The notes beneath the pieces were generated by a model. It was not told the origin of the DNA. It did no database searches and saw nothing but the letters and a program-made list of their open reading frames with translations. Shown here in pieces: positions 9,034 through 63,800 of a stretch of DNA of 64,000 nucleotides. The position numbers were made by a program, and so were the translations under genes. The first letter of the stretch is position 1. Each line of letters begins with the position of its first letter. Origin of the DNA: Stegostoma tigrinum (taxonomy: Eukaryota); NCBI RefSeq assembly GCF_030684315.1, contig NC_081391.1, forward strand, positions 21,536,629-21,600,628. The letters are read 5' to 3'.

Positions 9034-9096
9034 CAGAGCTTGTGTGAGACCAACTCACTTCTGGAGTGGTCTTGGTTTTTGTGAGTGGGAATAGTG

Positions 9097-15000: not shown

Positions 15001-15065
15001 CTCCATCTTCGGTCCGCCTCCCCCTCTCTCCCTATTTATTCCAGAACCGTCTCCCATCCCCCTCT

Positions 15066-15093
15066 CTGATGAAGGGTCTAGGCCCGAAACGTC
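15066..15093 (+). ncRNA. Minimal hammerhead ribozyme core (Penelope pLTR fragment)
   Basis: CTGATGA-AGGGTCTAGGCCC-GAAAC-GTC. Confidence 0.6.
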
Positions 15094-15199
15094 AACTTTT
15101 GTGCTCCTGAGATGCTGCTTGCCCTGCTGTGTTCATCCAGCTTCACATTGTGTTATCTTACTTTTAGATTGTTATTGGGTAAGGTTTGACGTTGGTAAT

Positions 15200-15890: not shown

Positions 15891-16649
15891 GAAAACCAAA
15901 AGAACTCTGTTTGCTGTAAATCAGGAACAAAAATAGTTGCTGGAAAAGTTCTGCAGGTCTGGCAGCACAGATGCCACTGATGTACTCTCTGATGAAGGGT
16001 CTAGGCCCGAAACATCAGCTTTTGTGCTCCTGAGACACTGCTTGGCCTGCTGTGTTTATCCAGCTCCACACTTTGTTATCTTGTATTCTTCAGCATCTGC
16101 AGTTCCCATTACCACTGACGTACTACCTGCTGTAAACAGAATGTCAGGATAAAGGGGGACAAAATTGTTTGAGTTTGAACACTGCAATAAGGTCACTTTT
16201 TAATCTTCTCTGCTCCAGGGAGGAAAAGTCCTGATTTCTTTGGCCTACCTCATATCTTTACACTGCGACCCCCTGTTCTGGACTTCCCCCCCCCCCCACC
16301 ATGGTGAACATCCTTCTTGTTTCTGTCCCATCTGGTGCTGTTACAATTTTCTATGTGCTCAGGCTAATCTTCCACCTTTCACACCCAAATCCCAGCACAA
16401 CAGGCAGAAAAACTGACCCCCACCCCCTTCAATGAACCGCACCTGAAGTTGGTCACAACAGAACTTATCTTAAAAGGGAAACTTTTTCTCAATTCAGATC
16501 AATTTCTTTTTAAAAAAAAGAACCAAATGACCTATGACATGATTGAGTGGTGCGGCAGGTTTGAGATGCCGAATGGCCTCCTGCTGTTCCAATCACACAA
16601 TAACCATCCAGACCTGATTACCATCTCCACCTGTGATCAGCTCTGCTTA

Positions 16650-16780
16650 ACACACCCACCCCCTCTCTCTAATTGGTGCCTGTATGCATGGGTGGTTCCT
16701 GATTGGCTGTCAGCAATTGTCACTCATCATTGGCTCTGCCTCTCCCTTGGTGAGTGCCGGACGTCCCAGCAGTGTAAATA
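16650..16780 (+). promoter_or_regulatory. Core promoter of ferritin D: CACCC, three inverted CCAAT boxes (16672, 16702, 16729), variant TATA TGTAAATA
   Basis: Homologous to the ferritin C promoter. Confidence 0.65.
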
Positions 16781-16847
16781 CAAGAGCTTGTGGGTGAGAG
16801 GCTCAGTTCTGAAGTTGTCTAGGTGATAGTGAACAGGAATAGTGAAG

Positions 16848-18951
16848 ATGGTTTCCCAAGTGTGTCAGAACTACCACAAGGACTGTGAGGATGCTGTTAA
16901 CAAGCAGATCAACCTGGAGCTCTATTCCTCTTATGTTTATCTCTCCATGGTGAGGCTGGTGGCCCTGATTAAAATTCAGAATGTGATTATATTTGCATTG
17001 AGTCTTTTAAGTGTTTTCTTGACCAAATAATTAGCTCACTTGAATGTTAAGTCTGCCAGTCTTTCTTTGACTGAACCTGATGAACACTTAATGAGGAAAC
17101 CTTTTGTTCCAATGTTTAGAATATATTTTGGGTTTCTGCTGCATGAATGTCCCCAGTTTGCTGTAACTGAACAGCATACCTACTGGTTCCTACTCTCCTA
17201 GCTGTGGAAGGCTGGTCTGGCTCAAAATGTGTTTGGTTTTTTACTTCTTGTAAAACAAGCCTAATTAACCAGGCTGTTGAAATCTGAGTAAGCTTATTAA
17301 CTATTCAACATGAAAGTAGCTAGGTGTGGTACACTTTTTTCACTTGAAATGTGAATGTTTTAAATATACAGTTAGAATTCTGTGTGGAGTAGATGGTAGG
17401 ACACTGGGATTATTCAGGTGGGTGATGTTGTTCGTGTGGTAGCTGACAGACTGATTACTGTATTAATCAACACATTTCCTACTGAAACACAGGGCAATGT
17501 TCTGACTGTGTCTTCTAGCACTGAGCAATAGGGCTTTTAATGAGCCTTGCAGGTTCAAGTCTAATGGCTGTGCCCCACCTGTGACCTTCATATTCCAGCA
17601 TACTGGACTTATGCACTCTGTAACCACGATACAGGTCAAGGTTACATTTGTGCTTTTGACTTGTTTGGGGTTTTTTTTCCCCTCCTTAAGTAAGATCAAG
17701 TGTCACTGGGTTAGTTCCTGGCTTAAGTTCTGTGGGTGAAAGTGAGACTCAACTCCCCTCTTTTTGTGTTTTACTTTTACAGTTCTCTTACTTTGACCGG
17801 GATGACGTTGCCCTGCGTCACTTTGCTGAGTTCTTCATGGAGCAGTCCCATGAGGAACGGGAACACGCTGAGAAACTGATGGCATTCCAGAATAAACGTG
17901 GAGGCCGAGTCCTCCTGCAGGACATCAAGGTTGGGGTCTTAATTTGGCTTTCTTTCTACTAGATTAGAAATAACGCTATTCTGTCTGGATTTGAGGTGAC
18001 TTAACTCCAGATAATGGCAATTCCAAACTGATGCCCTGTTAGCCCCTTCTCTTGCATCTTTACTGGATTGAATGCTCACTAAAAAAATGACCACCTCTTC
18101 TCTTCTGTTCTGCCATCAGAAGCCAGAGCAGGATGAGTGGGGCAATGGCCTGGAGGCAATGCAGATAGCTCTGCAGATGGAGAAGGATGTGAACCAGAGT
18201 CTGCTGGACCTACACAAACTCGCCTCTGGCCACATGGACCCTCATGTGAGTTTGTCATGCTCGTGACCCATGAGGAAAGCTTCAGATTACTGCTGGAAGG
18301 TGACTCTGTCCTTTTATAGCTGTACTTCTGAATGAAGCTAAACTACCTAAATTCAAACATGTAATTGAACAGGTGTTCATAAGCAGACATAACTGAAAGC
18401 TGTATCTAGCAGCATCTGTAGACAGAAAGCAGGTAATGTTTTGGGCCCAGCAACCTTTCAGAACACTTCCTCCCTTTTAAGGTAGGGTTGCTAAATTGGA
18501 AACACGAATAATCCCTCTCCTCAGATGCTGCCAACCTGCTGAGCTTTCCAAAAACTCTTTTGCTCTAGAGGCTGCAGTCCTTCCAGTTTTAACTTTTTTT
18601 TAAACTTGTACAGTCTAGCAGATTTCAGCCACTATTGCTACTGTTATAGAGCAGTGACTTTGTTTAGTGCCATGTCACAAGTGACTTGTGACTCCCTGGA
18701 TATGACTCTCTACTAGCTGGCAAGAGCATGCTGTATTAACTTGTCTCTTAGTTTTAAAACCTTGTTTCCAAAAGTCTGCTCACTTTTCTCCTTCACAGCT
18801 GTGTGACTTCCTGGAGAGGCACTACCTGGATGAGCAAGTGAAGATGATCAAGAAGCTGGGAGATCACATCACCAACCTGAAGAGACTGGGAGCCCCTGAC
18901 AATGGCATGGGAGAGTACCTGTTTGACAGGCTCACCCTGGGGGAAGAGTGA
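16848..18951 (+). CDS. Ferritin D, M/H-type subunit, 175 aa; exons 16848-16949, 17783-17929, 18120-18245, 18799-18951
   Basis: Complete spliced [15 protein letters not shown]...[12 protein letters not shown]; ferroxidase ligands intact; AATAAA at 19122-19127. Confidence 0.95.
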
Positions 18952-34012: not shown

Positions 34013-34018
34013 TTTATT
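34013..34018 (-). terminator. Polyadenylation signal AATAAA of ferritin E
   Basis: About 80 nt after the stop on the minus strand. Confidence 0.6.
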
Positions 34019-34100: not shown

Positions 34101-37100
34101 CTACTCTGCTCCCAAAGTGTGCTTGTTGAACAGATACTCAGCCATGCTATTCTGAGGGGCACCTAAGCGATGCAGGTTGGTGATGTGGTCGCCAAGTTTC
34201 TTGATGGTCTTGACTTGCTTCTCCAAGTAGTGGGTCTCCAGAAAGTTAGACAACTGGAAGAGAATGAAATGTATCCACTGTTTACTAAGCACAAAATATG
34301 GACTGCTTTTGAAAGTTAACACAAACCCAACAGTTTAGGCATGGGCAGGTTGTCCAATTTTTTCTGCGGTCTCTGTTTTTAGTGAAGGAAAATGAAAGAA
34401 AAATATGAAGGAATAATCAATAAATTATTCACCTGAATCTGTTCCTCACCTAACGATGCAGTCATGACAGACTACTACACCAAGTCCACTCTCTCACCTT
34501 AGGATCGTACAATACAGAAGAGGCCCTTTGGCCCACTGAGTCTGTGCAGAAAGAAGCACTGCCAGCTGTACTAGTCCTATTTTTCCATACTAGGATCCAT
34601 TACCGTGAATGGTATGACACTTCAAGTGCTCTTCCAAGTTCCTTATAAAGGTTTTCTGCCTCAACTACCCAGGCAGTGCATTCTAGACCCTCACAGCCCT
34701 CTGGGTGACAAAGGCTTTCCTCAAATCTTCTCTAAACCTCTTGTTCTACTCAATTGTAAGTTCACAGGAATGTAGAAAACAGGAGCAGAAGTAAGCCATT
34801 CAGCCCTTTGTGCATGCTCTGCTCTTCCCTCAACTACATCATTGTTAATCTTCTACCTCAACACCCTTTAGCCACAGTATCCTTACCGCACTTCATGTCT
34901 TAAGGATTGTTAGGTTTATAGATCTCCGATGGCTTGACTCTACAGCCCTCAGATTGAGAACATTCCATCACCTTGTGTGTAGAGAAACTCATATTCTATC
35001 AGTCCCAAATGTCCTAAGAGGCTTTTTAGTCTGGGGCTCTGTCCCCTGATTCTAGATTCCCACTCTCCAGCCAGAGGAAATCTCCTTCCTGCTTATACCT
35101 GTAAGAACTCTGCTTTCTTCCATGAGATCACCTCTCATTCTCTAAACTGTAGACAGCATGGGCTCCTCATGTAACAATCTGGCCACCTTGGGGATTATTC
35201 TGGTGAATCCTTTGTTGCACAAACTATCGGCATCTACCAAGACATGTCTTCCTCCCAAAATCTGAGTGATCTAGAACATTGTAGTCACCATTAAAAGGGC
35301 CATAATTGGCAAGTCTGCAAGTAATTCTGAATCCCTTTGTGTAAAAGGATTGAGTTGTCATTTCTGAATGTAGCAGCAAGCTGAAGAGGGTGGAACAACC
35401 TCAAGTTAATATCCAGTTGTAAAAACTCATGTGCCTGTAGGAGCAGCCAAACTCACAAGAAAATGCAGAACCATTCCAAGTGGCAAACTTACAGCATTTC
35501 GATTTCCTGACCATTCACATTAACATTGTTTTCAGAGATGGTCGCAATATCAATTCTGGGTGAAAAAAATGTCTCAATCTCTCTCTGCCAATATGTTACA
35601 AGTTGAATACCCAAAACCCAACAAATTTAGGTTACAGAATATTTTATTGAATACATACATGAGGGTCACTTCTATCCTTGGACAGTTTGTACAGCTCCAG
35701 TAGGGTTTGGTTAATGTTCTTCTCCAACTGCAGAGCGCACTGCATTGCCTGCAGACCACTGTCCCAGTCATCTTGTTCAGGTCTCTGGAGGGAAAAGTGT
35801 AGCCTGGTTAGTGATAATCAGGGTGGACAATGAAAGCAGGGGGAATCCATGGAATCTGGCTGTCCAGTTAGTCTTCACAACATCGATTCCCTGAGATGAA
35901 AGGGTTGTCTTATGAGGAAAAATTGAGCATTTTGGACCAGTGCATTTTGGAGTTTAGAAGAATGAGAAGTGATGTTATTGAAACAATGCTCATGAAACAA
36001 ATAGACAGGGTGAATTGAAGATAATAAAATGTGAGGCTGGATGAACACAGCAGGCCCAGCAGCATCTCAGGAGCACAAAAGCTGACGTTTCCGGCCTAGA
36101 CCCTTCATCAGAGGGTCTAGGCCTGAAACGTCAGCTTTTGTGCTCCTGAGATGCTGCTGGGCCTGCTGTGTTCATCCAGCCTCACATTTTATTATCTTGG
36201 ATTCTCCAGCATCTGCAGTTCCCATTATCACTGAGACAGGGTGAATTGAATGGGAATCTGGAAATAGGAGGCACAATTTCCAAATGAGGAATCTTTCACT
36301 GACAACAGATGGAGGAGAATACCTGCTCACTTACATTTTGGAATTCTCTATCCTAGGCAGCGATGAAGACAGGGTCATATGACATATTCAAGGCTGAGTC
36401 ATATTTTTGTTTACAAGGCTGTAGGGAGTAGGTAGGACTTGAGACCAGGATTATATCAGTCAAGATTGTTTTGAATAATAGGCAGGCTCAAGGGGCTTAA
36501 TAATCTACTGCTGCTCCTATTTCTCATGTCAGAATCTTACCCAATTTTCCAGCAAGCTTTTTGATTGTCAGCGAATCTGCTGAGGGTGACACCTTAGGCA
36601 GTAACACAAGAATAAAGAGATAACACAGTGTGGAGCTGAGGAAACACTGCAGGAGCAGGGCAATTGACGTTTTGGGTTGGGACCCTTCTTCAGAAATCCG
36701 TCCCGACATGCTTTCCTGCTCCTCTGATGCTGCCTGCCTGCTGTGTTCCTCCAGCTCTACACTGTGTTATCTCCAGCTCCAGCATCAGCAGTTCTTGCTA
36801 CCATGAGAAGGAAGGCTTCTTTGTTAAGCAAGGGTGTTAAGGAATATGGGCTAAAGCTGGGAACATGGCATTACACCACAGATCAACTATGATCTCATTA
36901 AGTGGCAGAACAGGGGCTGCATGCCTTATTTATAATTCTATTTTCCTTTCTCACTTTGATGCTAATTGGACACAAACATCTCTAGTAGCATGTGCTCTGA
37001 GGGGAAGCAGAGTTAATATGGAGCTTCAGGGTTGAATTACAGTAGAGAATAAGGCTATGAGAAACAACACAGAGCTGCTGTTACACCAACATGTTAATGT

Positions 37101-40100
37101 CCTAATCTCAGAAGAGCATTCTATCTGGCTCGGCGTGATGATCCCTTCTCATAATTATGGAGGAGTAAACAGAGAACAGATTTGTTCAAGAATTCTTCCA
37201 GAGTTGTGTGTAAAACAGGATGGGTTATAGAATCATATAGAACATTACAGCACAGTACAGGCCCTTCGGCCCTCGATGTTGTGCCGACCTGTCATACCCA
37301 TCATACCGACCTGAAGCCCATAATCGCCACCCTTCAGGCCACACCAATTATGTTCCTAAATTAAACTAGTCCCACTTGCTTGATTTGGTCCATTTTCCTC
37401 CAAACTGTTCCTATTCATTTACTTATCCAAATGTCTTTTAATTGCTGTAACTGTACCTACATCCACCACTTCCTCTGGCAGTTCATTGCACACAGGAACC
37501 ATTCCCTGTGTATAAGGTTGCCCCTCATTTCCTTTCTAAAACTTTCTCTTCATGCCTTAGAAAATGCCCCCTTGTTTTGAACTCCCCCACTTCAGGGAAG
37601 AGACCGTTAATAGTCACCTTATCTATCCTCCTTGTGATTTTATCAACCTCTATAAGGTCACCCTCAACCTCCTACGCTCCAGCGAAAAAAAATCCCAGCC
37701 TATTTTTATAACTCAAACCCTCCATTCCCAGCAACATCCTGGTAAATTTTTTGCTGAACCCTCTCCAATTTAATAATATCTTTCCTATAGCAGGGCGACT
37801 AGAACTGTACACTGTGCTCCAGAAGAGGCCACGTTCTTGCACTGGTTCAGGGCTGATGCAAGAATGCCAATTATAAAATTTAAACACAGGGCCCCACTCT
37901 CTGCAAACAGAAAAAATACACCCAGGTAATATGCCTTTTACAATTAAGCAAAAGTATACGGGACAATGGTTCCCCAGTGCATTGTCAATGTCAATGTCTT
38001 AAGCAATAAGAGTTCATTTGCCAACTAATCAGTACCTTTGTCTCATTCAGCAAAAGTTATTCTCTTTGAAAACTAGCATTCTTGCATCTGTCCTGATGAA
38101 TGTAAAGTGTAAAATTTCAACAGAGTCTCTCCTTTATCAGCGACATTTAGTTAGACAATGTTCGCAACATTTGTCACATGACAGAACTGCTCCTATTAGT
38201 TGCTTTCAACAAACTAACCTTGATATCTTGCAGGGTGATTCGGCCCCCTCGTTGATTCTGGAATTTCATCAGATTCTCTGCTTGTTCGCGTTCCTTGTCT
38301 GACTGCTTCTTGAAGAACCTCATAAAGTTGTCCAGGGCCACAGGTCCTTGGTCAAAGTAATAGGACTGCAAAATAGGGGACAGGGTGAGGTGAAATAAAA
38401 GAGAAATCAATCAAACGGATTTCTGAAGACAGATTGTCCGCTTGCCTGAATGAAAAAGATACAGAAGGATTCTGATTTATTCACTCTTAGGGTATGTATG
38501 TCACTAGGAAAGACCAGCATTTATTGCCCATTCCCATTTGCCCCTTGAGAAGGTGGTGGTAAGCTGTCTACTTGAACCACTGCTGTCCATGTGGTGTCAA
38601 AGGAGAATTAAGAGTCAATCGTGTTGTGGTGGGGCTGCAGTTACCTGTAGGCCAAGACATGAAGAATTCAACTCATTTCTTTCTCTTGAGAGGCAGGAGC
38701 AAACCTGACAGTTCAATAATTACAAATTCAATAGTTCGATGGTCATTATTACTGAAAATTGCATTTTAGTTTGGATTTATTCATCAATTGAAGTTAAATT
38801 CCACCAACTGCTGTGATGGTACTTGTCCTCATAGAACCATAGAATCACAAAATCATACAGTCCAGAAAAGGCTCTTCAGCCCATCAAGTCTGTACTGCTA
38901 GAAATGTATAGCTACCTTATAACCTTATAGTTATTCCAGTCTATTTTGACCTGATTCTCATGTCTCTGGCCACTGATTTAGGTCTTTGGATTCTTAGTCC
39001 AATAATATTTACAACAATGCTACCATCCCTTTGTTCTGATACAATCACATAATCCTTACCGTATTATCATAGATTCACCAAATTATATAGTATTGAAGAG
39101 GCTCTTCAGACTATTGAGTCTGCACTGTCAAAAATAGACCAAATCTGAACTGGTCCCACTTTCTACACATGGCTCAGAGCCTCAAATGTTGTGATGCTTC
39201 AAGTGCTCATTTTTAAAGGTTGAGGTTCCTCATCTCAACTACCCTCTGGGGCGTATATCCCAGACTTTTCCCCCAGACTACCCCACCAACTCACACCTCT
39301 GTCCCTCCCTCCCTCCCTCCCCCCACTATCCACCGCACTCTGAGTGAGAAAATAATTTCTCAAATTTTCATTGTCATTGTGTCAAACTGTACTTCTTTTG
39401 TATTAAGAAATCAGCAAAAGAAGATGCTGTTTCCCTCAGGTTGTGCCTTAATCGCAAAAAAAAAACTCTTTAGAATCAGAGATAACAAGGTGTAGATCTG
39501 GATGAACGCAGCAGGCCAAGCAGCATCGGAGGAGCAGGAAGGCTGATGTTTCAGCTCTGGACCTTATTTCTGAAGAAGGGTCTAGGCCCGAAACATCGGC
39601 TTTTGTGCTCCTCTGATGCTGCTTTGCCTGCTGTGTTCATCCAGCTCCACACCCTGTTATCTCAGATTCTCCAGCATCAGCAATTCCCACTATCTTTAGA
39701 ATCAGGATTATTTCAGTAGTGTCAGAGATAATGGGAACTGCGGATGCTGGAGAATCCAAGACAACAAAATGTGAGGCTGGATGAACACAGCAGGTCAAGC
39801 AGCATCTCAGGAGCACAAAAGCTAGTTTCAAGGCCGCAGAGATTACAAGAGAGTTGCAATGGGAGAGAGATTCCCTGAGGTTGGTCCGGAGGGAGGAGGG
39901 TAACTTCTTCAGGTTAGGCATCCCTGGAAGAGGCTTCGCAGTGAGGTTAAAATAGTATCAGAGATAATGGGAACTGCAGATGCTGGAGAATCCTTTTGTG
40001 TTCCTGAGATGCTGCTTGGCCTGCTGTGTTCATCCAGCCTCACATTTTGTTGTCTTATTTCAGTAGTGTGTCAGTTTTAATGGCCGTCAGTTATTAACAC

Positions 40101-43100
40101 ACATTGGAAGAGAAATGCCTCAGCTCTCTTCAGTTTACTGAGGCTCATAATCTGTTATCATTTCATTAGAATCAATCCATTGTTCTCAATGCACTAATAC
40201 ACACCCATGCCTATTCATTTTCTTGGGAAATCATGCAATAAACATATGCCTGATCTCATTAATAACAAGGCATTTCCATTCAACTGTAATATAATAGCCA
40301 TTAGCGAAGATTAAATATCAGTCTTCAGTTTGCTTTTTGACAGTTGAAACTTTAGGTGATTTAGGACAGTCAATTCAACAGATTTAGGACAGTCAAAAAT
40401 GAACGCTGAGACAGAAATTGCCAGAGAAACTCAGCATGCCTGGCTGCATCTGTGGAGAGAAAGCAGAGTATTCATTTCAGGTCCCGTGACCCTTCTTATA
40501 GAGTCATAGAGTTGTACAGCATGGAAACAGACTCTTCGGTCCAATCCATGCCAACCAGATATCCTAAATTCATCTAGTCCCGTTTGCCAGCATTTGGCCC
40601 ATATCCCTCTAATCCCTTTCTATTCATATACCCATCTAAAGATCTCCAGCAATTTCTGTTTTGGTTTCAGATTTCCTGCTTTGGTTTAATAAAGGCCAAG
40701 AGATGGTTCCCAAAACCAAGTTCCCAAGTGAGTTGGAGCGAACAGAGAACATGCTGGATAAACTCATCAAGTCTGGCAACATTTACGCCGAGAGAAACGG
40801 AGTTAACATTTTGAGTCCAATATGACTCTTTCTCAGAACTGAAAGCTGGTAGAGTCATAGGGGTCTGCAGCACAGAGAAGTCTGAGCTGGTCAAAAACAA
40901 CTAATTTAATCTTATTGGGTGTTGGAACTTCTTTTAATACATTTTTGACAGAGTCAGAGGCCCAGTGCAAAAGGATTGCTAATGGTGGAGAAAGAGATGG
41001 GGAGATGTAAATGGGTGTGTATTAAGGTTTGAAAGGAAGAGGAAGGGCTCTAACTACTGAGAGCAGAATAAATATGACATGAACAATAAATAAGACTGTG
41101 GGGGGAATGGGGGGGCAAGAATGTACAACAAATGGAGAACAATCAATTTCAGAAGTTGTAGAATTTAACATTGAGACTTTGAGGCAGTAGCTTTTCGAAG
41201 GAAATAAGATGATTAGCTCAGACAGAACTGTCTCAGAGGAAGGGTTACCAGACCCGAAACTTTAACTCTGTTTTTTCCTTCACAGATGCTGCCAGACCTG
41301 CTGAGCTTTTCCAGCAACTTTGTTTTTGTTAGGACTGCCTTAGACTCTGCTTTTAGACTGCTTGTAACTATCTTAACTCTGCTCTGAGCAAATGTTAGGC
41401 CCCAAATCATGTTTGTCAATAAGTGAAAAGCTGCCTGTCTGAGAAATTCAAGGTATCTGTACAAGCATTGAGGCTTTCCCCCTTCAATGGCGAAGATAAT
41501 GACAAATACCTGGGCAACTTATGACGGATTGAATTGCTGCAAGATTGATTTAATAGCATTGTACAAGTTTATGACTGGCTTATACGTAGGTGACAATATA
41601 AACTCTGATGAGCTGATAGTACAAACATTTCAAAGTTTTGGGCAATAGTTTGTAAGGAAAATTCTATTAACGCATCAAGTGTAATGATCTTGAAATTGCT
41701 GCTGAGAGAAGGGTCAAAGTGCAAGTGGAGATGATCAATGATTTCAAAGGAAATTGGATGGAAAGAAATTTGCAAGGCAATGAGGTGAGGCCGGGGGAAT
41801 AGGGATGATTGTACTGCTCTACAAGAGCCAGCATAGAGATATCAGGCTGAATGGACGCTTCCTATCACAAAATGGACTCTTTACCTCACTTTGACCTCTA
41901 CACAGTCACAGTATTGCCTTGATGCCTCGTGTTCAGCATTTATGATTAGTTTATACATTCGTTACATCAGAATTATGACTGGATTTTAAGTGCAACTGGT
42001 AAAATGTTTCATCATTGAACAGAGGTAGTGGGGACTGCTGATGCTGGAGAATCCAAGATAACAAGGTGTAGAGCTGGATGAACACAGCAGGCCAAGTAGC
42101 ATCAGGGTAGCAGGAAAGCTGACGTTTCGGACCTAGACCCTTCTTCAGAAATCTCAGCTCTCCCGCTCCTCTGATGCAGCTTGGACTGCTGTGTTCATCC
42201 AACTCTACACCTTGTTATCTCATCATTTTGGGGCAGAATTTGCTCTTGTTAATGAACTGGCAGACAGCTGCTGGTGATTTAACCTGAGGGTTAAACACAC
42301 CTCAGGCAAGGGGAGAGTTTGAGAAGGAGAATCCTTCATGTCACAATATTGCCAGCTAATGTGGGAGTTGAACCCAGTCGGTCGGCATCACTTAGCATCA
42401 CAAACCACACATCCAGCCAAGTGAACAATATTATGCACCATCTAGAAAGACATGGGTGTGACAGTCTTTGACAGGGTGCAGAGGAGATTTACCAGGATGG
42501 TTCCAGAGATGGAGAACTCGAGCTATAAGGTCACACAATGTGAACAAGTGAACAGCTCACACCATGATATGACCTATTAACAGAAATCAGTTTCTCTCTG
42601 GTCAGTCATTTCCTTTCAAGAATTTGGGAAATTGTGCCCAATAACATTTAGTGGCACTGAATGATGAGTTTGAAATTACACGCTGCAGAATTCCACCATT
42701 GGAACCATTAACTTTGCCTTACCGAGGGTTTTGAATGCAGAGGGGCATTTTTATCTGTATGTCATGATGATGAAGGACAAATTTATGGATACAATGTGGC
42801 AAGAAAGAAAAATGAGGATTTGACAGAGTAGCACCTTTTCCCACTGGATTCCCGAGGTGCTTTATGAAGTTTTAATGAGATACACGTCATAATGTTGGTA
42901 TACTACACTTTTTAATCCGTATTTACACTTCCACCAAAAATGCGGAGAAAGGCATCTGCTCCCAGGTTTTTTGAGTTTTAGAAAAACTTTAACGGGTTAC
43001 ACGAGCACAGGTTAGATAGGACACATGCAATATTCCTTAACACTATCTCACATTGAACACAACGTCAAACTGCATACCTGGGAATATAGTCTATACATGT

Positions 43101-43726
43101 TAAAGATCCCTAATAATTGGAAGTCCTGCTCGTAAATATTATTAAATTGAATTCGTTTGATTGTCACATATGTTCAAGTGAATACAGTAAAAAGTTTACA
43201 GTTGCTGCATCACTGCACCATCTTAGGTACAAAAATACAGATGCTTCAGATCAAATTCTTAGAAAACAAAACAAAATTAGTAAAGAAATAGCTCAGCATT
43301 ATAGATCATAGGAATAAATTAGAAAAATGAACAAGTTAAAAATGCAGAGTATCAATCTTTATGACCCGTACATGCGGACACCCATCCCCATCTTAGTTAT
43401 TCAGCTTAGAATTATGACAGTGCAACAAATGTTCAGTAAACTCAGTCACTTCATGCAAAAGATTGGGAGAAGGAATTAACTTAAGTTCAGGAAATTTTTT
43501 TTAAAAATTGCTTTCTGTGCAAGTTGCCACTGATCCTCCAAGAGGAAGGCGCATTTTGAAAAGACCAACATGAAATCACTAGCACCCCGACAGGTTTGAA
43601 ATTTGCTTCAGATACAAAACTCACCATGGAGAGGTAAACGTAGGAAGCATAGAGTTCCATGTTGATCATGCGATTGACAGCACTCTCACAGTCCTTGTGA
43701 TAATTCAGGCGTATGTTATGGTCCAT
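34101..43726 (-). CDS. Ferritin E, divergent subunit, 175 aa; exons 43726-43625, 38365-38219, 35784-35659, 34253-34101
   Basis: Four exons of 102/147/126/153 nt with canonical splice sites splice to the open frame [29 protein letters not shown]...[13 protein letters not shown]. Confidence 0.92.
36020..36233. mobile_element. Fold-back Penelope mini-element with 17-bp TSD in intron 2 of ferritin E
   Basis: agacagggtgaattgaa at 36003-36019 and 36234-36250; inverted arms of about 85 bp plus a 3' tail. Confidence 0.88.
39480..40054. mobile_element. Two adjacent fold-back Penelope insertions in intron 1 of ferritin E
   Basis: TSDs tctttagaatcag (39467/39693) and ttatttcagtagtgt (39708/40055). Confidence 0.8.
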
Positions 43727-43844
43727 GCTGAACAGGTCTTCAATACAGGCTCAAATTGCCCGAAGTGATATAGACTCAGGAATAGCTGCTGCTACCAGGC
43801 ACTCAAAGTTGGCAGTCTGAAAATATTTCGCAGGTGCCTCTGAA

Positions 43845-43850
43845 TTTATA
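43845..43850 (-). promoter_or_regulatory. Probable TATA box of ferritin E
   Basis: TATAAA on the minus strand about 120 nt upstream of the ATG at 43726. Confidence 0.55.
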
Positions 43851-51844: not shown

Positions 51845-53831
51845 AAGATAATAAAATGTGAGGCTGGATGAACACAGCAGGCCAAGCAGCATCTCAGGAG
51901 CACAAAAGCTGACGTTTCGGACCTAGACCCTTCATCAGAGAGGGGGATGGGGTGAGGGTTCTGGAATAAATAGGGAGAGAGGGGGAGGCGGACTGAAGAT
52001 GGAGAGAAAAGAAGATAGGTGGAGAGGTAGGGAGGGGATAGGTCAGTCCAGGGAAGACGGACAGGTCAAGGAGGTGGGATGAGGTTAGTAGGTAGATGGG
52101 GGTGCGGCTTGGGGTGGGAGGAAGGGATGGGTGAGAGGAAGAACAGGTTAGGGAGGCAGAGACAGGTTGGACTGGTTTTGGGATGCAGTGGGTGGAGGGG
52201 AAGAGCTGGGCTGGTTGTGTGGTTCAGTGGGGGGAGGGGGCGAACTGGGCTGGTTTAGGGATGCAGTTGGGGAAGGGGAGATTTTGAAACTGGTGAAGTC
52301 CACATTGATACCATTAGGCTGCAGGGTTCCCAGGCGGAATATGAGTTGCTGTTCCTGCAACCTTCGGGTGGCATCATTGTGGCACTGCAGGAGGCCCATG
52401 ATGGACATGTCATCTAAAGAATGGGAGAGGGAGTGGAAATGGTTTGCGACTGGGAGGTGCAGTTGTTTATTGCGAACTGAGCGGAGGTGTTCTGCAAAGC
52501 GGTCTCCAAGCCTCCGCTTGGGTTCCCCAATGTAGAGGAAGGCACACCGGGTACAGTGCATGCAGTATACCACATTGGCAGATGTGCAGGTGAACCTCTG
52601 CTTAATGTGGAATGTCATCTTGGGGCCTGGGATAGGGGTGAGGGAGGAGGTGTGGGGGCAAGTGTAGCATTTCCTGCGGTTGCAGGGGAAGGTGCCGGGT
52701 GTGGTGGGGTTAGAGGGCAGTGTGGAGCGAACAAGGGAGTCACGGAGAGAGTGGTCTCTCCGGAAAGCAGACAGGGGTGGGGATGAAAAAATGTCTTGGG
52801 TGGTGGGGTCGGATTGTAGATGGCGGAAGTGTCGACCCCACCACCCAAGACATTTTTCCATCCCCACCCCTGTGTGCTTTCCGGAGAGACCACTCTCTCC
52901 GTGACTCCCTTGTTCGCTCCACACTGCCCTCTAACCCCACCACACCCGGCACCTTCCCCTGCAACCGCAGGAAATGCTACACTTGCCCCCACACCTCCTC
53001 CCTCACCCCTATCCCAGGCCCCAAGATGACATTCCACATTAAGCAGAGGTTCACCTGCACATCTGCCAATGTGGTATACTGCATGCACTGTACCCGGTGT
53101 GCCTTCCTCTACATTGGGGAACCCAAGCGGAGGCTTGGAGACCGCTTTGCAGAACACCTCCGCTCAGTTCGCAATAAACAACTGCACCTCCCAGTCGCAA
53201 ACCATTTCCACTCCCTCTCCCATTCTTTAGATGACATGTCCATCATGGGCCTCCTGCAGTGCCACAATGATGCCACCCGAAGGTTGCAGGAACAGCAACT
53301 CATATTCCGCCTGGGAACCCTGCAGCCTAATGGTATCAATGTGGACTTCACCAGTTTCAAAATCTCCCCTCCCCCTACTGCATCCCTAAACCAGCCCAGT
53401 TCGTCCCCTCCCCCCACCGCACCACACAACCAGCCCAGCTCTTCCCCTCCACCCACTGCATCCCAAAACCAGTCCAACCTGTCTCTGCCTCCCTAACCTG
53501 TTCTTCCTCTCACCCATCCCTTCCTCCCACCCCAAGCTGCACCCCCATCTACCTACTAACCTCATCCCACCTCCTTGACCTGTCCGTCTTCCCTGGACTG
53601 ACCTATCCCCTCCCTACCTCTCCACCTATCTTCTTTTCTCTCCATCTTCAGTCCGCCTCCCCCTCTCTCCCTATTTATTCCAGAACCCTCACCCCATCCC
53701 CCTCTCTGATGAAGGGTCTAGGTCCGAAACGTCAGCTTTTGTGCTCCTGAGATGCTGCTTGGCCTGCTGTGTTCATCCAGCCTCACATTTTATTATCTTG
53801 GATTCTCCAGCATCTGCAGTTCCTATTATCA
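51845..53831. mobile_element. Palindromic (fold-back) Penelope insertion: 967-bp inverted arms, 21-nt spacer, 3' tail, TSD up to 17 bp
   Basis: Arms 51845-52811 and 52833-53799, each with a GIY-YIG C-terminal ORF; atcacagatcagattga at 51829-51845 and 53828-53844. Confidence 0.93.
53706..53733 (+). ncRNA. Minimal hammerhead ribozyme core (mirror copy at 51911-51938 on -)
   Basis: CTGATGA-AGGGTCTAGGTCC-GAAAC-GTC. Confidence 0.55.
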
Positions 53832-54859: not shown

Positions 54860-57800
54860 ATGGGCAGCCTGTGGCGCCTGTTACCGGGACGTTGCCGCCT
54901 CCTCCTGGTCGCACCTCGGCACCCCGGCCTGCCGGGCCTGTCTTGCTCCCTCTTCGCCGCCCGGACACAGCTGCGGGTCCAGGGGGGGTCTCAGGGCCCG
55001 CGGAGATGGGGGTCTCAGGGCCCGCGGAGATGGGGCCACAGCCGCCAGGACTACCCGAGGGAATGTGAGGAAGGCATCAACAGACAGATCAACCAGGAGC
55101 TCACCGCCTCCTACGTCTACCTGTCCATGGTGAGCGGGGATCCAGCAGATCCCAAGAACTCCAGCACACCTCAGTGGGCAATACAGCACATCCCATTTCC
55201 TCCAGCAGGTCTTTTTTGATCCAGTATGTCACATTAGGGCATCCAGTGGATCCCATTCACCCCAGCACACCCAGTGGAGAATCCAGTAGATTTCCATTCA
55301 CCCCAGCACACCCAGTGGAGAATCCAGTAGATTTCCATTCACTCCAGCACACTTTAGTGGGGAATCCAGTGGATTCCATCCACTCCAGCACACCCAGTGG
55401 AGAATCCAGTCGATTTTCATTCACTCCAGCACACTTTAGCGGGGAATCCAGTGGATTCCATCCACTCCACACCCAGTGGAGAATCCAGTAGATTTCCATT
55501 CACTCCAGCACACCCAGCGGGGAATCCAATAGATTCCATTCACTCCAGCACACCCCTTGGAGAATCCAACAGATTCCATTCACTCCGCACAACCAGTAGG
55601 GAATCCAGCAGATTCCATTCACTCCACACCCCAGTGGGAAATGCAGCTTATCCTATTCATTCCGCATCCCAGCAGGAAATCCAGCAGATCCCACTCATGC
55701 CAGCACTTTTCATTAGGGAAATTCAGCAGATCCTCACTGCCTCGTGCATAACGGGGCCAAATCCTGGCCCATCCTGTTCACTCCACCATGTTCCAGCAGA
55801 GAGCCTAGCGCATTCCCATGCAGTACAGCCAATTCCAGCAAGGAATCTCAGCTCAACCAAGGATAAAATCCCGAAGATTCCAATATATCTCAGGAGAGAA
55901 CCCAAGCATGTACTCACTGTCTGATAAGTCCCAGAAAGGAATCCCAGCACACCCAGAAGACCTCAAGGGAAAATCCTGCCAGTCATTGTTCAACTCAACA
56001 CATGCCAGGAGGGAAACCCAGCACCAAACCCAGTACATTAAGGAAAGAATCCAGCAGATACCATTCAGCCTAACATTTCCCTGGAGAGAAATCCCAGGAG
56101 AGAATCAGGCATGTCCCATTCAAAACAATGTATACTGGTGCAGTGTACAGAGCCCAGGGCATGTCACTAGGAATTCCAGCACATCGCTGTAGTAAATTTC
56201 ACACATCACATTTGAGAAACCATGGCCTTCTGCATGGCATAGCATATCCCACACCCCCACACCCACCAAGTAATATCTCCCCCACCTCAGTTCCCCCAAC
56301 AGTAAATCCCAACAAATCCTCACTGGCTGACATCACTTCCCAGCAGGAAATTCTAGCAGGCCCCCACCAGCTAGCACATCCCAGCAAGGCATGCCAGTAT
56401 TTTCTTACATCTTGAGAATAACAACCATCACATTGCCTACAGTATAGATTATGTCAGTTTCAATGCGGAAGTAGCAAGGCTCCACAGTACCAAGAGAAAT
56501 ATCTAGTGCTACTTATACAATAGAACTTTATCCAATCAGCGCAACAAGAAACTCAGCATATCTCCTTTCAATCAAAACACGTGCCCTCCAACAATTCCAG
56601 CATCTTCCTTCAGTTTCCCAACCCAAAATATAAAATCAGTTTGGCTGGAGTTGGGGGATATAGGAAAAACATCACTGCTGGGAATGGTTTATATCACTAA
56701 CAATAGTTAAAAGTCTAGTTCAGAGTGTGTAACACTATTATTCAAGAAAGGGCAGAGCCAAAATGCAGGAAACTATTGCCTAAGGTTGGGAAATTGCAAG
56801 AATTCCCAAAGTAGCAGGTCATTTAGAACATCATAATGCAATCAGACAGAGCCAACATGTTTTTGTAAAAAGGAAACTGACAGATTTATTACAGCTGTTG
56901 GTGAATGTTACATGTAAAGAAGGTGGGAACAATATTTGGATGTATAAAATGCTGAGGTGATACGTTAGCATGGATAGAGGGAAGTGACAGCGTGGTGGTA
57001 TTATCACTGGACAGTAACTCCATTGACTCGGTATTAATCCATCATGGTGGTTCAGTGGTTAACACTGCACCCTCACAGTGTCAAGGACCAAAATTCAGTT
57101 CCATCCTGGGCGACTTCTCTGTGTTGAGTTTGCACATTCTCCCAATATCTCCATGGATTCCCTCTGGGTGCTCCACTTTCCTCCCAAAGTCCAGAGATGT
57201 GCAGTTTAAGTGGATTAGCCGTGCTAAATTATTCCATACTGTCCAGGGAAGTGCATTCTGGGTGGATTCGCAATGGGAAATGGAGGAATACAGGGAGAGG
57301 ATGGGCTGGATCTGAGTGGGATGCTCTTTGGAGGATCAGTGATTGATTGGCTTGATTGGAGGAACTTGATTGGCTGAATGGCCTGCTTCCACACTGTAAG
57401 GATTCTACAATCTAGAGAATGTTCTGGGGACCTGGGTTCAAATCCCACCATGACAGATAGGGGAATTTGAATTCAGTACAAGTCTGGAATTAAGAGTCTA
57501 ATGACAACCGTGAATCCTTTGTCAGTTGTTGGGAAAAAGACCATTTGGTTTACTAATTACCATCCTTACCTGGCTGACATGTGACTCCAGACCCATAGCA
57601 ATGTGGTTGACTTTTGACTCAATTAGGGATGGGGTGATAAATGCTGGCTGTGCATGTGACTCCCCCAATCCTGTGAATGAATAATAAGAGAAAAGGATTG
57701 CTTGACAAACAAGAAACAAGAGTCAGAATAAAAGCTCATTTTCAGACTGGTGAACTATCATGTAGTCAGATAACACAGAACCAGTGCTGAGGCTTCAATT

Positions 57801-60800
57801 ATTTGCAGTCACTATTAGTCACTTGAATGAAAGGTCAGTCTGTATTGTAGTTAGATTTACTGATAAGATTAGGGTAGGTAGGAAAGCTAGGTCTGAGAAG
57901 GGTAGAAGGATTTAAAAAGATATTGAAAGGTAAAATTACAGAGTATAACGTGGGAAAATGTGAGGCTGTCCACTTCAATAGAAGAATAGAAAAGCTAAAT
58001 ATTACTTAAATGGGAGAGAGTGTAGAAAGCTACATTACAGAGGGATCAGGATCATATATGAATCACAAAAGTGAGCATCGAATTACAGCAAGTAATTGTG
58101 AAGGCAATGGAACATTAGCCTTTATTGGAAAGAGGATGGAGTATTTAAAAAAACAAAATTGTGCTACATTGGTACCCGCTGTAGGATATGATTTTACTGT
58201 CAATATTGAAGGAACAATATACTTGCATTGAAAGCAATTCAGTGAAGATTTGCTGGTCTGATTTGTTTGGATAAAGGGAACAAAAACAGAAATTTGCTGG
58301 AAAAGCTCAGCATGCCTGGCAGGATCTGTGGAGGGAAATCACGTCAATGTTTCAGGTCAAGTGACCCTTCCTCAGTGCAAATGAAAAAAGGGATTTTGTC
58401 TTACAAGGAAGGGTTGAGCTGCACTCATTGGAGTTTGGAAGAAATCAGTGATCTTATTGGAATGTAAGATTCTGAGCACATCTGGGAGGGTGGATAGTGA
58501 AAGGATGGTTTTTTTTTCTAGTGGGGATGTGGAGCCAGGGGTCACAGTTTCAAAATATAGAGTCACACTTAAAATAAAAAGAGAACGTGCTGAAGAAACT
58601 CAGAAAATCCGATAGCACTCGTGGAGAGCATTAGCATTTCGAGTGTGATACAACTTGTCTTCGAAAAAGAGAATCAGCAGCATTTTGAAAAGGCAAATTG
58701 GGCAGGACTTGTACACTTAATGGTAGGGTTCTGGGGAGTGTTGCTGAACAAAGAGACCTTAGAGTGCAGACTCGTAGTTCATTGAAATTGGAGTCACAGG
58801 TAGACAGGATAGTGAAAAAGGCATTTGAAATGCTTGCCTTTAGTGGTCAGTACATTGAGTACTGGAGTTGGCACGGTATGTTTTAGCTGTACAGGACATT
58901 AGGCCACTTTTGGAATGTTCTGTTCACTTCTGGTCTCCCTGCTACAGGAAGAATGATGTGAAACTTGAAGGAGTTCAGAAAAGATTTAAAAGGATGTTGC
59001 CTGAGTTGGAGGGTTGTGCTATAGGGAGAGACTGAATAGCCTTGGGCTATTTTCCCTGGACTGTTGGAGGCTGAAGGGTGACCTTATAGAGGTTTATAAA
59101 ATCAAGAGAGGCGCGGATAGGTTGAATAACTAAGTTGTTTTCCCCTAAATGAGGGAGTCCAGAACTAGAGGGCATAGGTTTAAGGTGAGAGGGGAAAGAT
59201 GTAAAGGGGACTTAAGGGGCAACTTTTTTTACACCGAGGGTGGTGCGTGTTGGGAATGAGCTGCCAGAGGAAGTGGTGGAGGCTGGTACAATTACAGCAT
59301 TTAAAAGGCATTTGGACGCGTATATCAATAGGAAGGTTTAGAGGAATATGGGCTAAATGCTGGCAAATGAGACTAGATTAATTTAGGATATCTGGTTGAC
59401 ATGGGCAAGGTGGGCTGAAGGGTCTGTTTCCATGCTGTACCGCTCTATTGATAAATTGAAGAATTGATAATGATTATAGTGATGAATCAAAGTGTCGATC
59501 CAGTCTAGGTGTTAATGGCAGATTAATGGGCTGTTGTGGTGTGGTGGCAGTGTCGCTGTCTCTGAGTCAGGAGGCTTGGGTTTAAGTCCCACCTACTCTA
59601 AAGATGTGTAATAATATCTATGAACAGGATGATTAGAAAATATAGACCCAGGGTTGGTGCTAGTGACAGATTTATGGACCCTTGTCATGCAGGTCTAGTG
59701 TCCCTATCTTTGAGTTAGAAGGACCAGGTTCTAGTCCCATCTACACAAAGGTGTATCATAACATGACCAGACAGGCTAAACACAAAACAACAGTAATGGT
59801 GAATCAAACGTTATCTCTGACCAAAAACAAGGATATGAAACAAGCTGAAGGCACAGAGATAGAGAATCAATAGTTTTTGAAATTCTTTTCCACAAAGAAC
59901 GTCAGAGATTGGATCATTGAATATATTCAAGGTTACTTTAGAAGTATTTTTGACTGGCAAAGAATTAAAATGGACTGACAGAAAAGTGTACTTAAGGTCA
60001 CAATTAGCTCACTGATGATCCTATCAATTGGTGCAACAGGCTCAGTGGGCCAAATGGCATACTCCTGTTCCCATCCCGTGTAATCTTACGATCATTAACT
60101 CTCAACTCCAGTACATATTCATATTCGATCCTCATATGCCCTTGTACAACCCTAGGACATCAGATAATCTTCTTCATAGCCAGCAGATTTGACAAATTAT
60201 AAAGCAACATGTAATCTCATTGATTTGCATTAATCATAGGACAGGGCATGGTTTAAAATGGAAGTTTTAAATCATGCTAAATAATTAAAGATATTAGAAA
60301 GTATTTCTTGAGAGCATTGAGGCCTAAAATAATTGAGACTAAATCCAGCATAGTATTTTTTTTAATTGAGAACAGGATAAATATAACATGAAAAGAAAAT
60401 ACTATGATGGCTGGAAATCTGAAATGACAAATAGCAAGGGCTAGAAAGCACCCAGGAGGTCGGGTAGTACCTGGATAGAGATTGAGAATTAGCTTTTAAG
60501 TTTACTGACAATTAAATATGTGACCTTGGTCTTAGCTGTGCTCTCTAACTGGATTCTCAGCTTTCTGACCCATAGACCACAATCAGTGAGGATAGGTAAC
60601 TGCACCACCTCCACAATAACTCCAAACACTGGAGTTCCCCAAGGATGTGTCCTTGGCCCCCTACTGTATTCCCTGTACACCTACTACTGTGTTGCCAAAT
60701 TCTGAACGAATGCCACCTACAGGTTCACTGAAGAGACCGTGTAGTGGGACTGATGGCTAACAACGATAAGTCAAAACCCAGAAGGGAGATGGAGGGCTTG

Positions 60801-63800
60801 CTGATGTGGTGCAATGAAAACAATCTGTCTCTGAACATCAGCAAAACTAAAGAACTGATCATTGACTCCAAGAACAAAAGAGGAGAATATGCCTCCATCC
60901 ACATCAGTGGAACAGAGGCTAAGAGAGTGAAGAGCGTCAAGTTCCTAAGAGTGACAATAACCGGCAGCCTGTCCTGGACTCCCCATGTAAATGCAACAGT
61001 TAAGAAGGCACAATAACACCTCTTCTTCCTCAGGCGGCTCAGGAAATTTGGCATGTCCATAAGGTCCCTTGTCAACTTCTATAGATGCATCATTGAAAGC
61101 ATAATGTCCAGGTGCATGTTGAACAGCTACTTCTTCACCATTGAATAGACTCTAGTCTCAAATAATTTAACCTGTACATCTTTTTGACCTGTACATCCTT
61201 TGCTTACTGTGATCTGCCTGTACCATTCTTAAACAAAGCTTTTCACTGTATTTCAGTACATGTGACAATAAAATCAATCAATCAATCATCCAAACTTGAA
61301 GATGTTGAAGACTGGTCATCATTAAGTGGAGACAAAACATGACTGTAAATTGAATTAAAATCATACAAATAGTTATACAAATTATACAAATAGTTGTAAA
61401 CTGTGTAGATTTACATTGAAGGGCTTATGTCAGCTCATACTCAACTAAGGCTGGCTTTTTCTTTTCAATTTCCTATACTTGTTTATAAAGAAGTGTCATA
61501 TTGTCTTGCGTATAATATTGTTATTAACTCTAATAGTTGCAAAATGCTGCAGAACCTCCAGGAGCAGGTGGATGTAATTGCAGTATGACATGTTTACATT
61601 CAAAATTTAGAAACATAAAAGATTGGAGCAGGAGAAGGCCATTCAGCCCTTTGAGCCTGCTCCAACATTCTTCACGATCATGGCTGATCATCCAACTCAA
61701 TAGCCTAATCCTGCTTTCTCCCCAAAACTTTGATCCTATTCGCCCCCGGTGATATATGTAGTGGCCTGTTCAATACGTTCACTCTTTTGGCATCAACTAC
61801 TTCCCGTGGTAATGAATTCCACAGGCTCACTGCTCTTTGGGTGAAGAAATGTCTCCTCATCTCTATCCTAAATTGAATATCCCAAAACCTCAGACTGTGA
61901 CCCCTGGTCTTGACGCACCCAACGTCGGGAACATTCTCCCTGCATCTACTCTATCCAGTCCTGTTAGAATGTTATAGGTCTCTGTGAGATCCCCCTCATT
62001 TTTCTGAACTCCAGTGAAAACAATCCCAACCTATTCAATCTCTCCTCATATGTTAGACCCGCCATCCCCAAAGTCAATGCGGTAAACCTTCACCACACCC
62101 TCACAAACCTTCAGCCATGATCGTAAAGAATGTCAGAGCATGACTCAAAGGGCTGAATGGCCTCCTCTTGCTCTTTACGTTTCTAAATTCTGAATATAAA
62201 CATCACTGCAGTCACATCCTCCTACTACTGGAGGTTCTGCAGCATTTCCAACTACTACAAAGAGCAAGAGCATCCTTCCTCAGAAAAGGAGACCAAAACT
62301 GCACACGATATTTCCAGCTGTGGTCTCACCGGTGGCTGTACAACTGCAACAACACATCCCTGCTCCTGTACTCGAAACCTCTTGCATTGAAGGTCAACAT
62401 ACCATTTCCCTTCTTTATCGTCTGCTGCATCTGCATGTTTACGTTCAGTAACTTCTGCACAAGCTATGAACTGACATAAGTCCTTCAACGCAAGCCTACA
62501 CAGCTTACACATATTTGTATAACTTCCAATTTTAATTCAAATTATAGTCATGTTTTGTCTCTACTCAATGATGATCAGTCTCCAACATCTTCCAGTTTAG
62601 ATTATTGATTAATTGATTTTATTGTTACGTGTACCAAAATACAGTGAAAAGCTTCGTTTATGAGCGGTACAGGCAGATCACAGTTAGCTAATGATGTACA
62701 GATCACAAAGGTTTAGAGGCATACAGGTTACATTGTTTGAGGCTCAAACCCATTCAACAGTTTCATTGTTGAAGAAGAAATTTTATAGCTCCTTTCTCAA
62801 CCTCAGGACATTCGAAAACACATAACAGCCAGTGAAGTGTTTTGCTGATGATTAGTCACTTATGCAGGAAATATGGGTCACCTTTTCCTTAAAGCAAGCT
62901 TAAACACAATCACAAGTGACTAAACAATGAACTACGGATGATGGAAATCTCAAACAAAAAGAAGAAATTGCTAGAGAAACTTAGCAGGTCGGGAGAGAAG
63001 ACAGAGTTAACATTTGGAGACCAGTTCTGAGAACAGATCACCGGACTTGAAATGTTAACTCTGCATTTCCTCTCTACTGAATTACCTGTCTGATTTACAA
63101 GTTATGGTGGAAAGATAAATACTGGCTGGGAAACAAGGGATAGCAGCCCTGGTCTTTGAACTATGGTAAAACCATTGGGTTCTTCGTGTGCACCTGAGGG
63201 AATTTTGCAAAGGAAGATGTCGCTTTGGAAAACTCCCTGAGATAAATGTAAATAACTACAATGGACATGTCTCCTCTCTGGAGAAAAATTCAAACCACAA
63301 TCTTCTGACTGGGGTCAGTGTGAAATGCCGGTACAAAGCTGACATGTACTTGTACCAAGAAGATTGTGGGATTGTCTCTCGAAGGCTTAAATATTTCGTA
63401 GTCTGCTCTGACTAGGTAGTGAATGGTAGAGTGTTGACAGGGTGACCATGAATGAATGGTGAGGTATATTCGTGTTGGGATGGCATGTGCCTTGGTGTTT
63501 TAAATATTGTCATCGCCTGCTGTTTTTATCTGCCTCAGTCGTACTACTTTGACCGGGAAGATGTTGCTTTGCGCAACTTTGCCAAGTTCTACTTGGAGCA
63601 GTCACTTGAGGAACAGAAACATGCAGAGATGTTGATGAAGTTCCAGAATCTGCGTGGTGGCCGTATCATCTTCTCGGACATCAAGGTTAGTGGGCAAGAG
63701 CTGTCTCTACCCTCTTCACTGTTCCAATGGCTTCTCCCTAATGTTAAGCGATTTGGTTCAAGTCCATTGACCCAATTATCTTTATTCATAGAAACCCAGC

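What the first reader, a model, noticed from the sequence alone, without database searches (positions are those of the whole stretch)
34101..43726. Intact ferritin gene with substituted iron-entry and ferroxidase residues
Seen (human H numbering): SHEEREH becomes SDKEREQ (E61K, H65Q), and E140 is K. Three-fold channel residues change H118Y, C130S and D131N, and DRDD becomes DQGP. The frame, splice sites, TATA and polyA signal are all intact. Known: H65 ligates ferroxidase iron, and H118/C130/D131/E134 line the Fe2+ entry channel. Mammalian L chains lose activity by different changes (E27Y, E62K, H65G) and keep D131. Inference: an independently evolved catalytically impaired subunit, acting as an L-like partner, a channel-restricting modulator or a non-iron structural protein.
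Basis: partly seen in the sequence, partly recalled or inferred. Interest (0 to 1): 0.72.

Follow-up and report, generated by a model that had tools for sequence, protein, structure and literature searches.

The report
Shark ferritin with charge-reversed iron pathway
Sharks and rays share an intact, single-copy ferritin gene in which acidic residues that move iron into and through the protein cage are fixed as lysines, so it likely makes a subunit that cannot store iron and would line the cage with positive charge, a change so far described only as an engineered one in the papers searched.

Summary
Confirmed. The minus strand carries a four-exon, 175-aa ferritin gene with all the listed substitutions. 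It is not a decaying copy: it is single-copy, and 14 distinct shark and ray sequences, its own included, form one clade. K57, K61, Q65 and K140 are fixed in 14 of 14, while E62, E64, E107, E134 and Q141 are kept. C130S/D131N occur only in the 5 carpet-shark sequences, so the channel change is a late addition. It is not an L chain. The genome has a frog-L-type gene 79 kb away and an array of over 100 E62K copies, and this gene loses nucleation carboxylates instead of gaining them. E61 and E140 are the exit/nucleation and entry-transit residues (PMC12022971). E61K, E140K and E147K are three of the seven changes used to engineer a cationic, siRNA-loading human ferritin (PMC11838010); K147 is ancestral here. 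No iron-responsive element was found. Best reading (0.5): a non-mineralising subunit with a cationic cavity, functionally like FTHL17. Expression and activity are untested.

The parts
43844..43850 (-). TATA-like box, 124 nt before the ATG
   Evidence: sequence
43625..43726 (-). Exon 1 coding part (34 aa; helix A; E27 and Y34 retained); ATG in a strong context
38219..38365 (-). Exon 2 (49 aa; helix B): DQGP at 42-45, K57, K61, E62, E64, Q65
35659..35784 (-). Exon 3 (42 aa; helix C): E107 retained, Y118
34101..34253 (-). Exon 4 (50 aa + stop; helices D and E): S130, N131, E134, K140, Q141, K147
34013..34018 (-). AATAAA polyadenylation signal 83 nt after the stop (a second one starts at 33859)

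Best explanation
This is an intact, single-copy ferritin paralogue shared by sharks and rays, with lysine fixed at inner-surface positions 57, 61 and 140 and glutamine at the iron ligand 65; it likely still folds and joins a cage but would not mineralise iron, and would line the cavity with positive charge. Shown: the gene, the clade, the fixed residues, no IRE match in the window. Predicted: a normal four-helix ferritin fold. [quoted passage not shown] The likely role is an anti-storage subunit outside iron-responsive translational control. Alone it would form iron-poor cages; mixed with H or M chains it would lower iron capture and keep Fe2+ available in a restricted cell type, as proposed for mammalian FTHL17.
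For: K57, K61, Q65, K140 in 14 of 14 orthologous sequences; E61, H65, E140 in 14 of 14 canonical H/M/array ferritins. Of 9 derived columns fixed in all 13 full-length sequences, 4 lie in a 15-residue iron-path set (hypergeometric p = 0.004; p = 0.03 using only the 72 columns invariant in canonical ferritins; the set was drawn up after the changes were seen). 0 of 247 other ferritins carry K/R61 + Q65 + K/R140 together. Human mitochondrial ferritin: E61A lowers mineralisation from 79 to 6.9 uM/min and blocks Fe3+ release; E140A cuts Fe2+ binding from 3.0 to 0.76 (PMC12022971, passages). D131N abolishes the rapid phase in human H (PMC13088775, section 7). Charge at five inner-surface sites named in those papers and PMC11838010: +3 in 12 of 14 and +2 in 2 of 14, against -2 to -4 in H, Z and both arrays. 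Model: pLDDT 85.5, TM 0.92 and rmsd 1.1 A to human H. IRE found at the H and Z genes but not in the window.
Against: No activity, assembly or expression data. E27 and Y34 (13 of 13 full-length sequences) and E62, E107, Q141, E134 (14 of 14) stay invariant, although the lower-subunit genes show these can be lost, so a metal site may still be under selection. No measured H65Q variant was found. In mitochondrial ferritin E61A leaves the ferroxidase centre working. The Glu-to-Lys changes are single G-to-A transitions, and K147 is shared with the canonical array and Z genes. Overall 99 of 173 columns are invariant in the clade, so invariance of four sites alone is not striking.
Confidence: 0.5

Rival explanations
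1. A retuned, slow metal-binding or ferroxidase subunit: the centre still binds and oxidises one or two ions through E27, E62, E107, Q141 and the Q65 oxygen, but does not build a core; it acts as a stoichiometric Fe2+ or peroxide buffer, or binds another metal.
For: Five of six centre residues and E134 are invariant across sharks and rays. E61A mitochondrial ferritin keeps centre activity (PMC12022971). 8 of 14 sequences keep an acidic residue at 131.
Against: Both transit carboxylates are reversed to lysine, not just removed, and H65 is invariant in the 14 canonical ferritins compared.
Confidence: 0.27
2. A natural cationic cage for anionic cargo (nucleic acid, phosphate or polyphosphate), unrelated to iron storage.
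For: It has K at 61, 140 and 147, three of the four helix sites changed to make siRNA-loading HFn(+), and ends at residue 178, before two of that design's three C-terminal sites (PMC11838010, passages). Net charge of the chain is -4 to +1 in 6 orthologues against -7 to -12 in H, Z and array chains.
Against: E64 is kept, K147 is ancestral, and engineered loading needs pH-driven disassembly. No natural cargo is known to me. In mixed cages with acidic chains the charge would be cancelled.
Confidence: 0.12
3. An L-like nucleation or stabilising partner for H/M chains.
For: Apparent loss of ferroxidase function; it lies in the same cluster as the lower-subunit gene; salmonid and eel lower subunits also have K61 and Q65; a sister relation to the lower subunits is not rejected.
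Against: L-type nucleation uses the acidic patch around 57/61/64 (PMC12022971), which is K, K, E here. It has none of the lower-subunit changes E27K, E107Q, Q141S/N, nor E62K. The genome already has both kinds of L-type gene.
Confidence: 0.07
4. A decaying or silent duplicate from the neighbouring array.
For: It sits at the end of an array of more than 100 ferritin copies, some with stop codons; no transcript was seen directly.
Against: Open frames in 14 sequences from sharks and rays; 85-99% identity among full-length shark sequences and 75-80% to rays, better conserved than the lower-subunit gene (55-70% to rays); dN/dS 0.12-0.24 against paralogues; only 64-65% identical to array copies.
Confidence: 0.04

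Closest known systems
Vertebrate H and M ferritin chains (FTH1; fish and amphibian middle subunit)
   Same: Four-exon phase-0 structure, predicted fold (TM 0.92), 64-68% identity to the genome's H, Z and array chains, and E27, Y34, E62, E107, E134, Q141.
   Different: E61K, H65Q, E140K and K57 fixed; no IRE, which the H and Z genes have; separate clade.
Amphibian/fish lower (L) subunit (frog L, PDB 1RCD)
   Same: Same gene cluster; salmonid and eel members share K61 and Q65; frog L shares T144 and N171.
   Different: Lower subunits carry E27K, E107Q and Q141S; this gene keeps all three. The shark lower-subunit gene is a different gene 79 kb away, 47% identical.
Mammalian L chain (FTL)
   Same: Presumed ferroxidase-poor; same chromosome neighbourhood (RUVBL-family and Bcl-2-family matches on C50; the human gene order is recalled).
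   Different: No E62K; nucleation patch basic instead of acidic. The genome's E62K/Q141E array groups with amniote L-like sequences instead, with weak support (90/59).
FTHL17
   Same: A conserved, H-like ferritin without ferroxidase activity, proposed to keep Fe2+ available rather than store it (PMC7760355 and PMC13149808, passages).
   Different: FTHL17 is an X-linked mammalian gene inactivated by E62K with E61D; this gene has introns, keeps E62 and reverses charge at the transit sites. No FTHL17 proper was in my trees, so non-orthology rests on residues and gene structure.
Engineered HFn(+) (E61K, E64R, E140K, E147K, D177K, D179K, E181K)
   Same: K61, K140, K147; predicted cationic cavity (PMC11838010).
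   Different: Natural; keeps E64; adds K57 and Q65; no cargo shown.

Membership tests
Eukaryotic ferritin subunit | Four-helix bundle plus short E helix; ferritin domain | tested here: met
   PF00210 on all orthologues; model with helices A-E, TM 0.92 to human H
Eukaryotic ferritin subunit | Assembles into a 24-mer cage | not testable with these tools
   Many core and interface residues are invariant; no assembly test was run
H/M-type (ferroxidase-active) chain | Centre ligands E27, E62, H65, E107, Q141 (with Y34) | tested here: not met
   H65 is Q in 14 of 14; the other five are kept
H/M-type (ferroxidase-active) chain | Transit carboxylates E61 and E140 | tested here: not met
   Both K in 14 of 14
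H/M-type (ferroxidase-active) chain | Three-fold channel D131 and E134 | tested here: not met
   N131 in this gene and 4 other carpet sharks; D in 5, E in 3, G in 1; E134 in 14 of 14
H/M-type (ferroxidase-active) chain | 5' iron-responsive element | tested here: not met
   No RF00037 match in the window at the gathering score or at E <= 5 in 33500-55000; matches at H and Z as positive controls. The array copies in the window lack it too.
H/M-type (ferroxidase-active) chain | Measured ferroxidase activity | not testable with these tools
   Needs recombinant protein
Amphibian/fish lower (L) subunit | E27K, E107Q, Q141S/N | tested here: not met
   E27, E107, Q141 kept; frog L states read
Amphibian/fish lower (L) subunit | Falls in the lower-subunit clade | tested here: inconclusive
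   Outside it in the best trees, but a joint clade is not rejected: p-AU 0.50 and 0.38
Mammalian L chain / FTHL17 | E62K inactivation | tested here: not met
   E62 in 14 of 14
Mammalian L chain / FTHL17 | Acidic inner-surface nucleation patch (57/61/64 region; L chain) | tested here: not met
   K57, K61, E64
Mammalian L chain / FTHL17 | Germ-line expression and partly nuclear location (FTHL17) | not testable with these tools
   No RNA data were reachable

The most novel reading that the evidence does not exclude
Sharks and rays evolved a natural charge-inverted ferritin: a homopolymeric cage with a cationic interior (about +70 from the five named sites over 24 subunits) that packages RNA, phosphate or another polyanion instead of iron, arriving at the same lysine substitutions that engineers chose for nucleic-acid-carrying ferritin.
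Probability: 0.12. Interest if true: 0.88.

Novelty: new variant of a known kind. Interest (0 to 1): 0.6.

Why it matters
Vertebrate ferritins are taught as H, M and L. This is a further conserved subunit type, kept across the shark-ray split (roughly 250-300 million years, recalled), that is altered at the iron transit and nucleation sites while most of the catalytic core is kept. It gives a natural test of what E61, H65 and E140 do, with a built-in series (D, E, G or N at 131) across species. It bears on the open question of what ferroxidase-poor ferritins such as FTHL17 are for. It may also be a naturally stable cationic nanocage. None of my 10 literature searches returned a description of it.

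Tried and rejected
Expression: no RNA holder listed for the locus, which is no evidence either way. The catshark atlas supplement (PMC11979771) could not be read and may hold tissue data. Supplements of PMC13188829 and PMC11406177 and the texts of PMC13701976 and PMC13007054 had nothing on this gene. Orthologue dN/dS could not be computed, as no orthologue DNA was reachable; paralogue values are near saturation and not lineage-specific. A shared promoter with the array copies was suspected from a short motif, but alignment scores (27 and 33) did not exceed shuffle maxima (34 and 39). The sister group is unresolved. The glycogen synthase family maps to C20 and C33, not C50, so that synteny marker failed. 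Rfam matches below threshold in 33500-55000 are hairpin hits, several in repeat-rich intron stretches, and were set aside. No complex prediction was sent, since ferritin pairs would pass by likeness to solved cages. Three look-ups of earlier findings returned nothing. Assembly error was rejected.

Full report
Observation. The minus strand holds a complete ferritin gene, here called X: exons 43726-43625, 38365-38219, 35784-35659 and 34253-34101, three GT-AG phase-0 introns, 175 residues. The protein is identical to record P0009, labelled by its source as a ferritin heavy-subunit-like model of Stegostoma tigrinum. A gap-free alignment of orthologue P0001 to human H chains fixes the numbering as residue + 3. 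E61K, H65Q, H118Y, C130S, D131N, E140K and DQGP at 42-45 are all present, as are a TATA-like box and two AATAAA signals. Contigs of two DNA runs match the exons with no differences (they may be the assembly's source). E27, Y34, E62, E64, E107, E134 and Q141 are retained, and position 57 is also lysine.

Copy number and neighbourhood. Searches of the genome with exon 2 and exon 4 each gave one self match; the next best were at most 70% and 76% identical among the 150 scored of 427 and 461 candidates. X is therefore single-copy within those limits. It stands at the end of a large array of canonical ferritins: an exact pattern for the canonical helix-B motif has 134 matches in the genome, 99 of the 100 listed at C50 20.0-21.4 Mb. 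Beyond X lie gene Y (54860-65281), gene Z (about 70.6-72.7 kb, canonical, with an IRE) and gene W (about 122.5-133.6 kb). W has E27K, E107Q and Q141N, and frog L ferritin is its best PDB match. The H gene lies on C20 beside a bestrophin gene and has an IRE. A second array at C50 13.0-14.4 Mb carries E62K and Q141E: 119 pattern matches, 97 of the 100 listed on C50; of 10 four-exon copies assembled, 9 had canonical junctions and open frames.

Orthologues. Protein searches returned 14 distinct X-type sequences, one of them X itself, from carpet, horn, mackerel, cat, hound, saw and sevengill sharks and two batoids. An isoform (P0002) was left out of the counts, and the sevengill model has a different first exon. 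They form one clade: SH-aLRT 99 in a quick tree of 70 rows, 100/100 and 100/99 in careful trees of 40 and 41 rows. No X-type sequence from chimaera, Amblyraja, Leucoraja, Mobula or Narcine appeared in the 120 listed of 487 hits; that does not show absence.

What is fixed and what is not. K57, K61, Q65 and K140 are in 14 of 14. E62, E64, E107, E134 and Q141 are in 14 of 14, and E27 and Y34 in 13 of 13 full-length sequences. Y118 is in 12 of 14. S130, N131 and Q43 are only in the 5 carpet-shark sequences; position 131 is otherwise D (5), E (3) or G (1). Four of 9 fully fixed derived columns fall in a 15-residue iron-path set (p = 0.004, or 0.03 under a stricter null; the set was chosen after seeing the data). 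Among 247 of 277 other ferritins with all three columns aligned, none has K/R61, Q65 and K/R140 together; 8 have two of the three, including salmonid and eel lower subunits (K61, Q65) on an already dead centre.

Constraint. X is 85-99% identical to full-length shark orthologues and 75-80% to batoid ones. For comparison, H is 95%, Z 85-86% and W 55-70% identical to their batoid counterparts. Pairwise dN/dS against paralogues is 0.12-0.24, with synonymous sites near saturation. A young pseudogene is excluded. Expression was not shown. The record lists three accession numbers for the same protein, which in my knowledge of NCBI's pipeline points to transcript-based UTR variants; this is indirect.

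Mechanism. The AlphaFold model (pLDDT 85.5) is an ordinary ferritin subunit, TM 0.92 to human H. In frog M ferritin the equivalents of E61 and E140 are the transit sites between channel and centre (PMC10114856, passages). In human mitochondrial ferritin E61A cuts mineralisation from 79 to 6.9 uM/min by blocking Fe3+ release while leaving the centre working, and E140A cuts Fe2+ binding about four-fold (PMC12022971, passages). D131N abolishes rapid oxidation in human H (PMC13088775, abstract, introduction and section 7). H65 is a listed centre ligand; I found no data on H65Q. X reverses the charge at both transit sites and at 57, so the inferred result is a subunit that takes up little iron and does not nucleate a core. 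At five inner-surface sites named in these papers the charge is +3 in 12 of 14 and +2 in 2 of 14, against -2 to -4 in H, Z and both arrays and +1 in W. The engineered siRNA carrier HFn(+) uses E61K, E64R, E140K, E147K and three C-terminal changes (PMC11838010, passages). X has three of the four helix changes, but K147 is shared with Z and the canonical array, so only two are its own innovations. No IRE was found in the window, while H and Z have one.

Against this reading: five of six centre residues remain invariant although W shows they can be lost, which fits a retained metal site (rival 1). 99 of 173 columns are invariant in the clade anyway. Nothing was measured.

Relation to known kinds. 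X fails the H/M test (H65, E61, E140), the lower-subunit test (E27K, E107Q, Q141S) and the mammalian L/FTHL17 test (E62K). It works, most likely, like FTHL17, a ferroxidase-less H-like ferritin proposed to keep Fe2+ available (PMC7760355, PMC13149808, passages), but by other residues. Its sister group is unresolved: joint clades with W (p-AU 0.50), with all lower subunits (0.38), with the E62K array (0.26) or with that array plus amniote L-like rows (0.10) are not rejected. Frog and lungfish lower subunits keep E61, E62 and H65, so the K61/Q65 state is best read as separately gained in X and in teleost lower subunits.

Novelty. Ten literature searches returned no description of this paralogue or of shark ferritin arrays; most results were seen as listings only, and the library lacks most subscription papers. 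The nearest precedent for expansion is 14 fthl27 copies in a snailfish (PMC10746142, passages). A ferritin history review mentions elasmobranchs only for a 1952 crystallisation (PMC11719527, passages). Ferroxidase-poor ferritins are a known kind, so this is a new variant of a known kind. Interest 0.6.

Noticed in passing
G000:C50 about 13.0-14.4 Mb (L039-L050): A second tandem array of intron-containing ferritin genes with E62K and Q141E, changes typical of mammalian L chains: 119 pattern matches genome-wide, 97 of the 100 listed on C50; 9 of 10 assembled copies intact; groups weakly with amniote L-like sequences. Possibly a roughly 100-fold expanded FTL orthologue; may merit its own follow-up.
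   Followed up: partly
window 583-18951 (+) and G000:C50 about 19.9-21.56 Mb, also contig C216: Large array of canonical middle-type ferritin genes (at least 5 in the window; 134 exact motif matches genome-wide). With the second array the genome holds over 250 ferritin exon-2 copies; cluster sizes of 138 and 180 for other sharks suggest the expansion is shared.
   Followed up: partly
window 54860-64000 (+), exon 4 at extended position 65126-65281 (L021): Gene Y: intron-containing ferritin with an Arg-rich N-terminal extension of about 56 aa lacking acidic residues, resembling a mitochondrial transit peptide; keeps E27, E61, E62, H65, E107, E140, Q141, with E131. Candidate mitochondrial ferritin separate from the intronless mammalian gene.
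   Followed up: partly
L021 (-), extended positions 70634-72699: Gene Z: canonical ferritin with an IRE, with orthologues in sharks and rays; likely the housekeeping middle-type chain.
   Followed up: partly
L026-L027 (+), extended positions 122500-133589: Gene W: lower-subunit (frog L-type) ferritin with E27K, E107Q, N131; no IRE match in L026 or L027.
   Followed up: partly
L033-L034, extended positions about 187000-203300 (+): Repeated exons that look like fibronectin type III domains of a receptor tyrosine phosphatase (recognised by eye, not searched), preceded by a 1485-codon low-complexity, mucin-like frame at 163138-167592.
   Followed up: no
window 52700-52930; also 36050-36200 and 39500-39820: Long inverted repeats that give sub-threshold miRNA-family matches; those at 36 kb and 39.5 kb lie in very high-copy repeat stretches and look like head-to-head repeat elements.
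   Followed up: no
P0108 (chimaera): A chimaera ferritin with K57, D64, D140 and A141, another altered centre; it groups with the canonical array, not with X.
   Followed up: no
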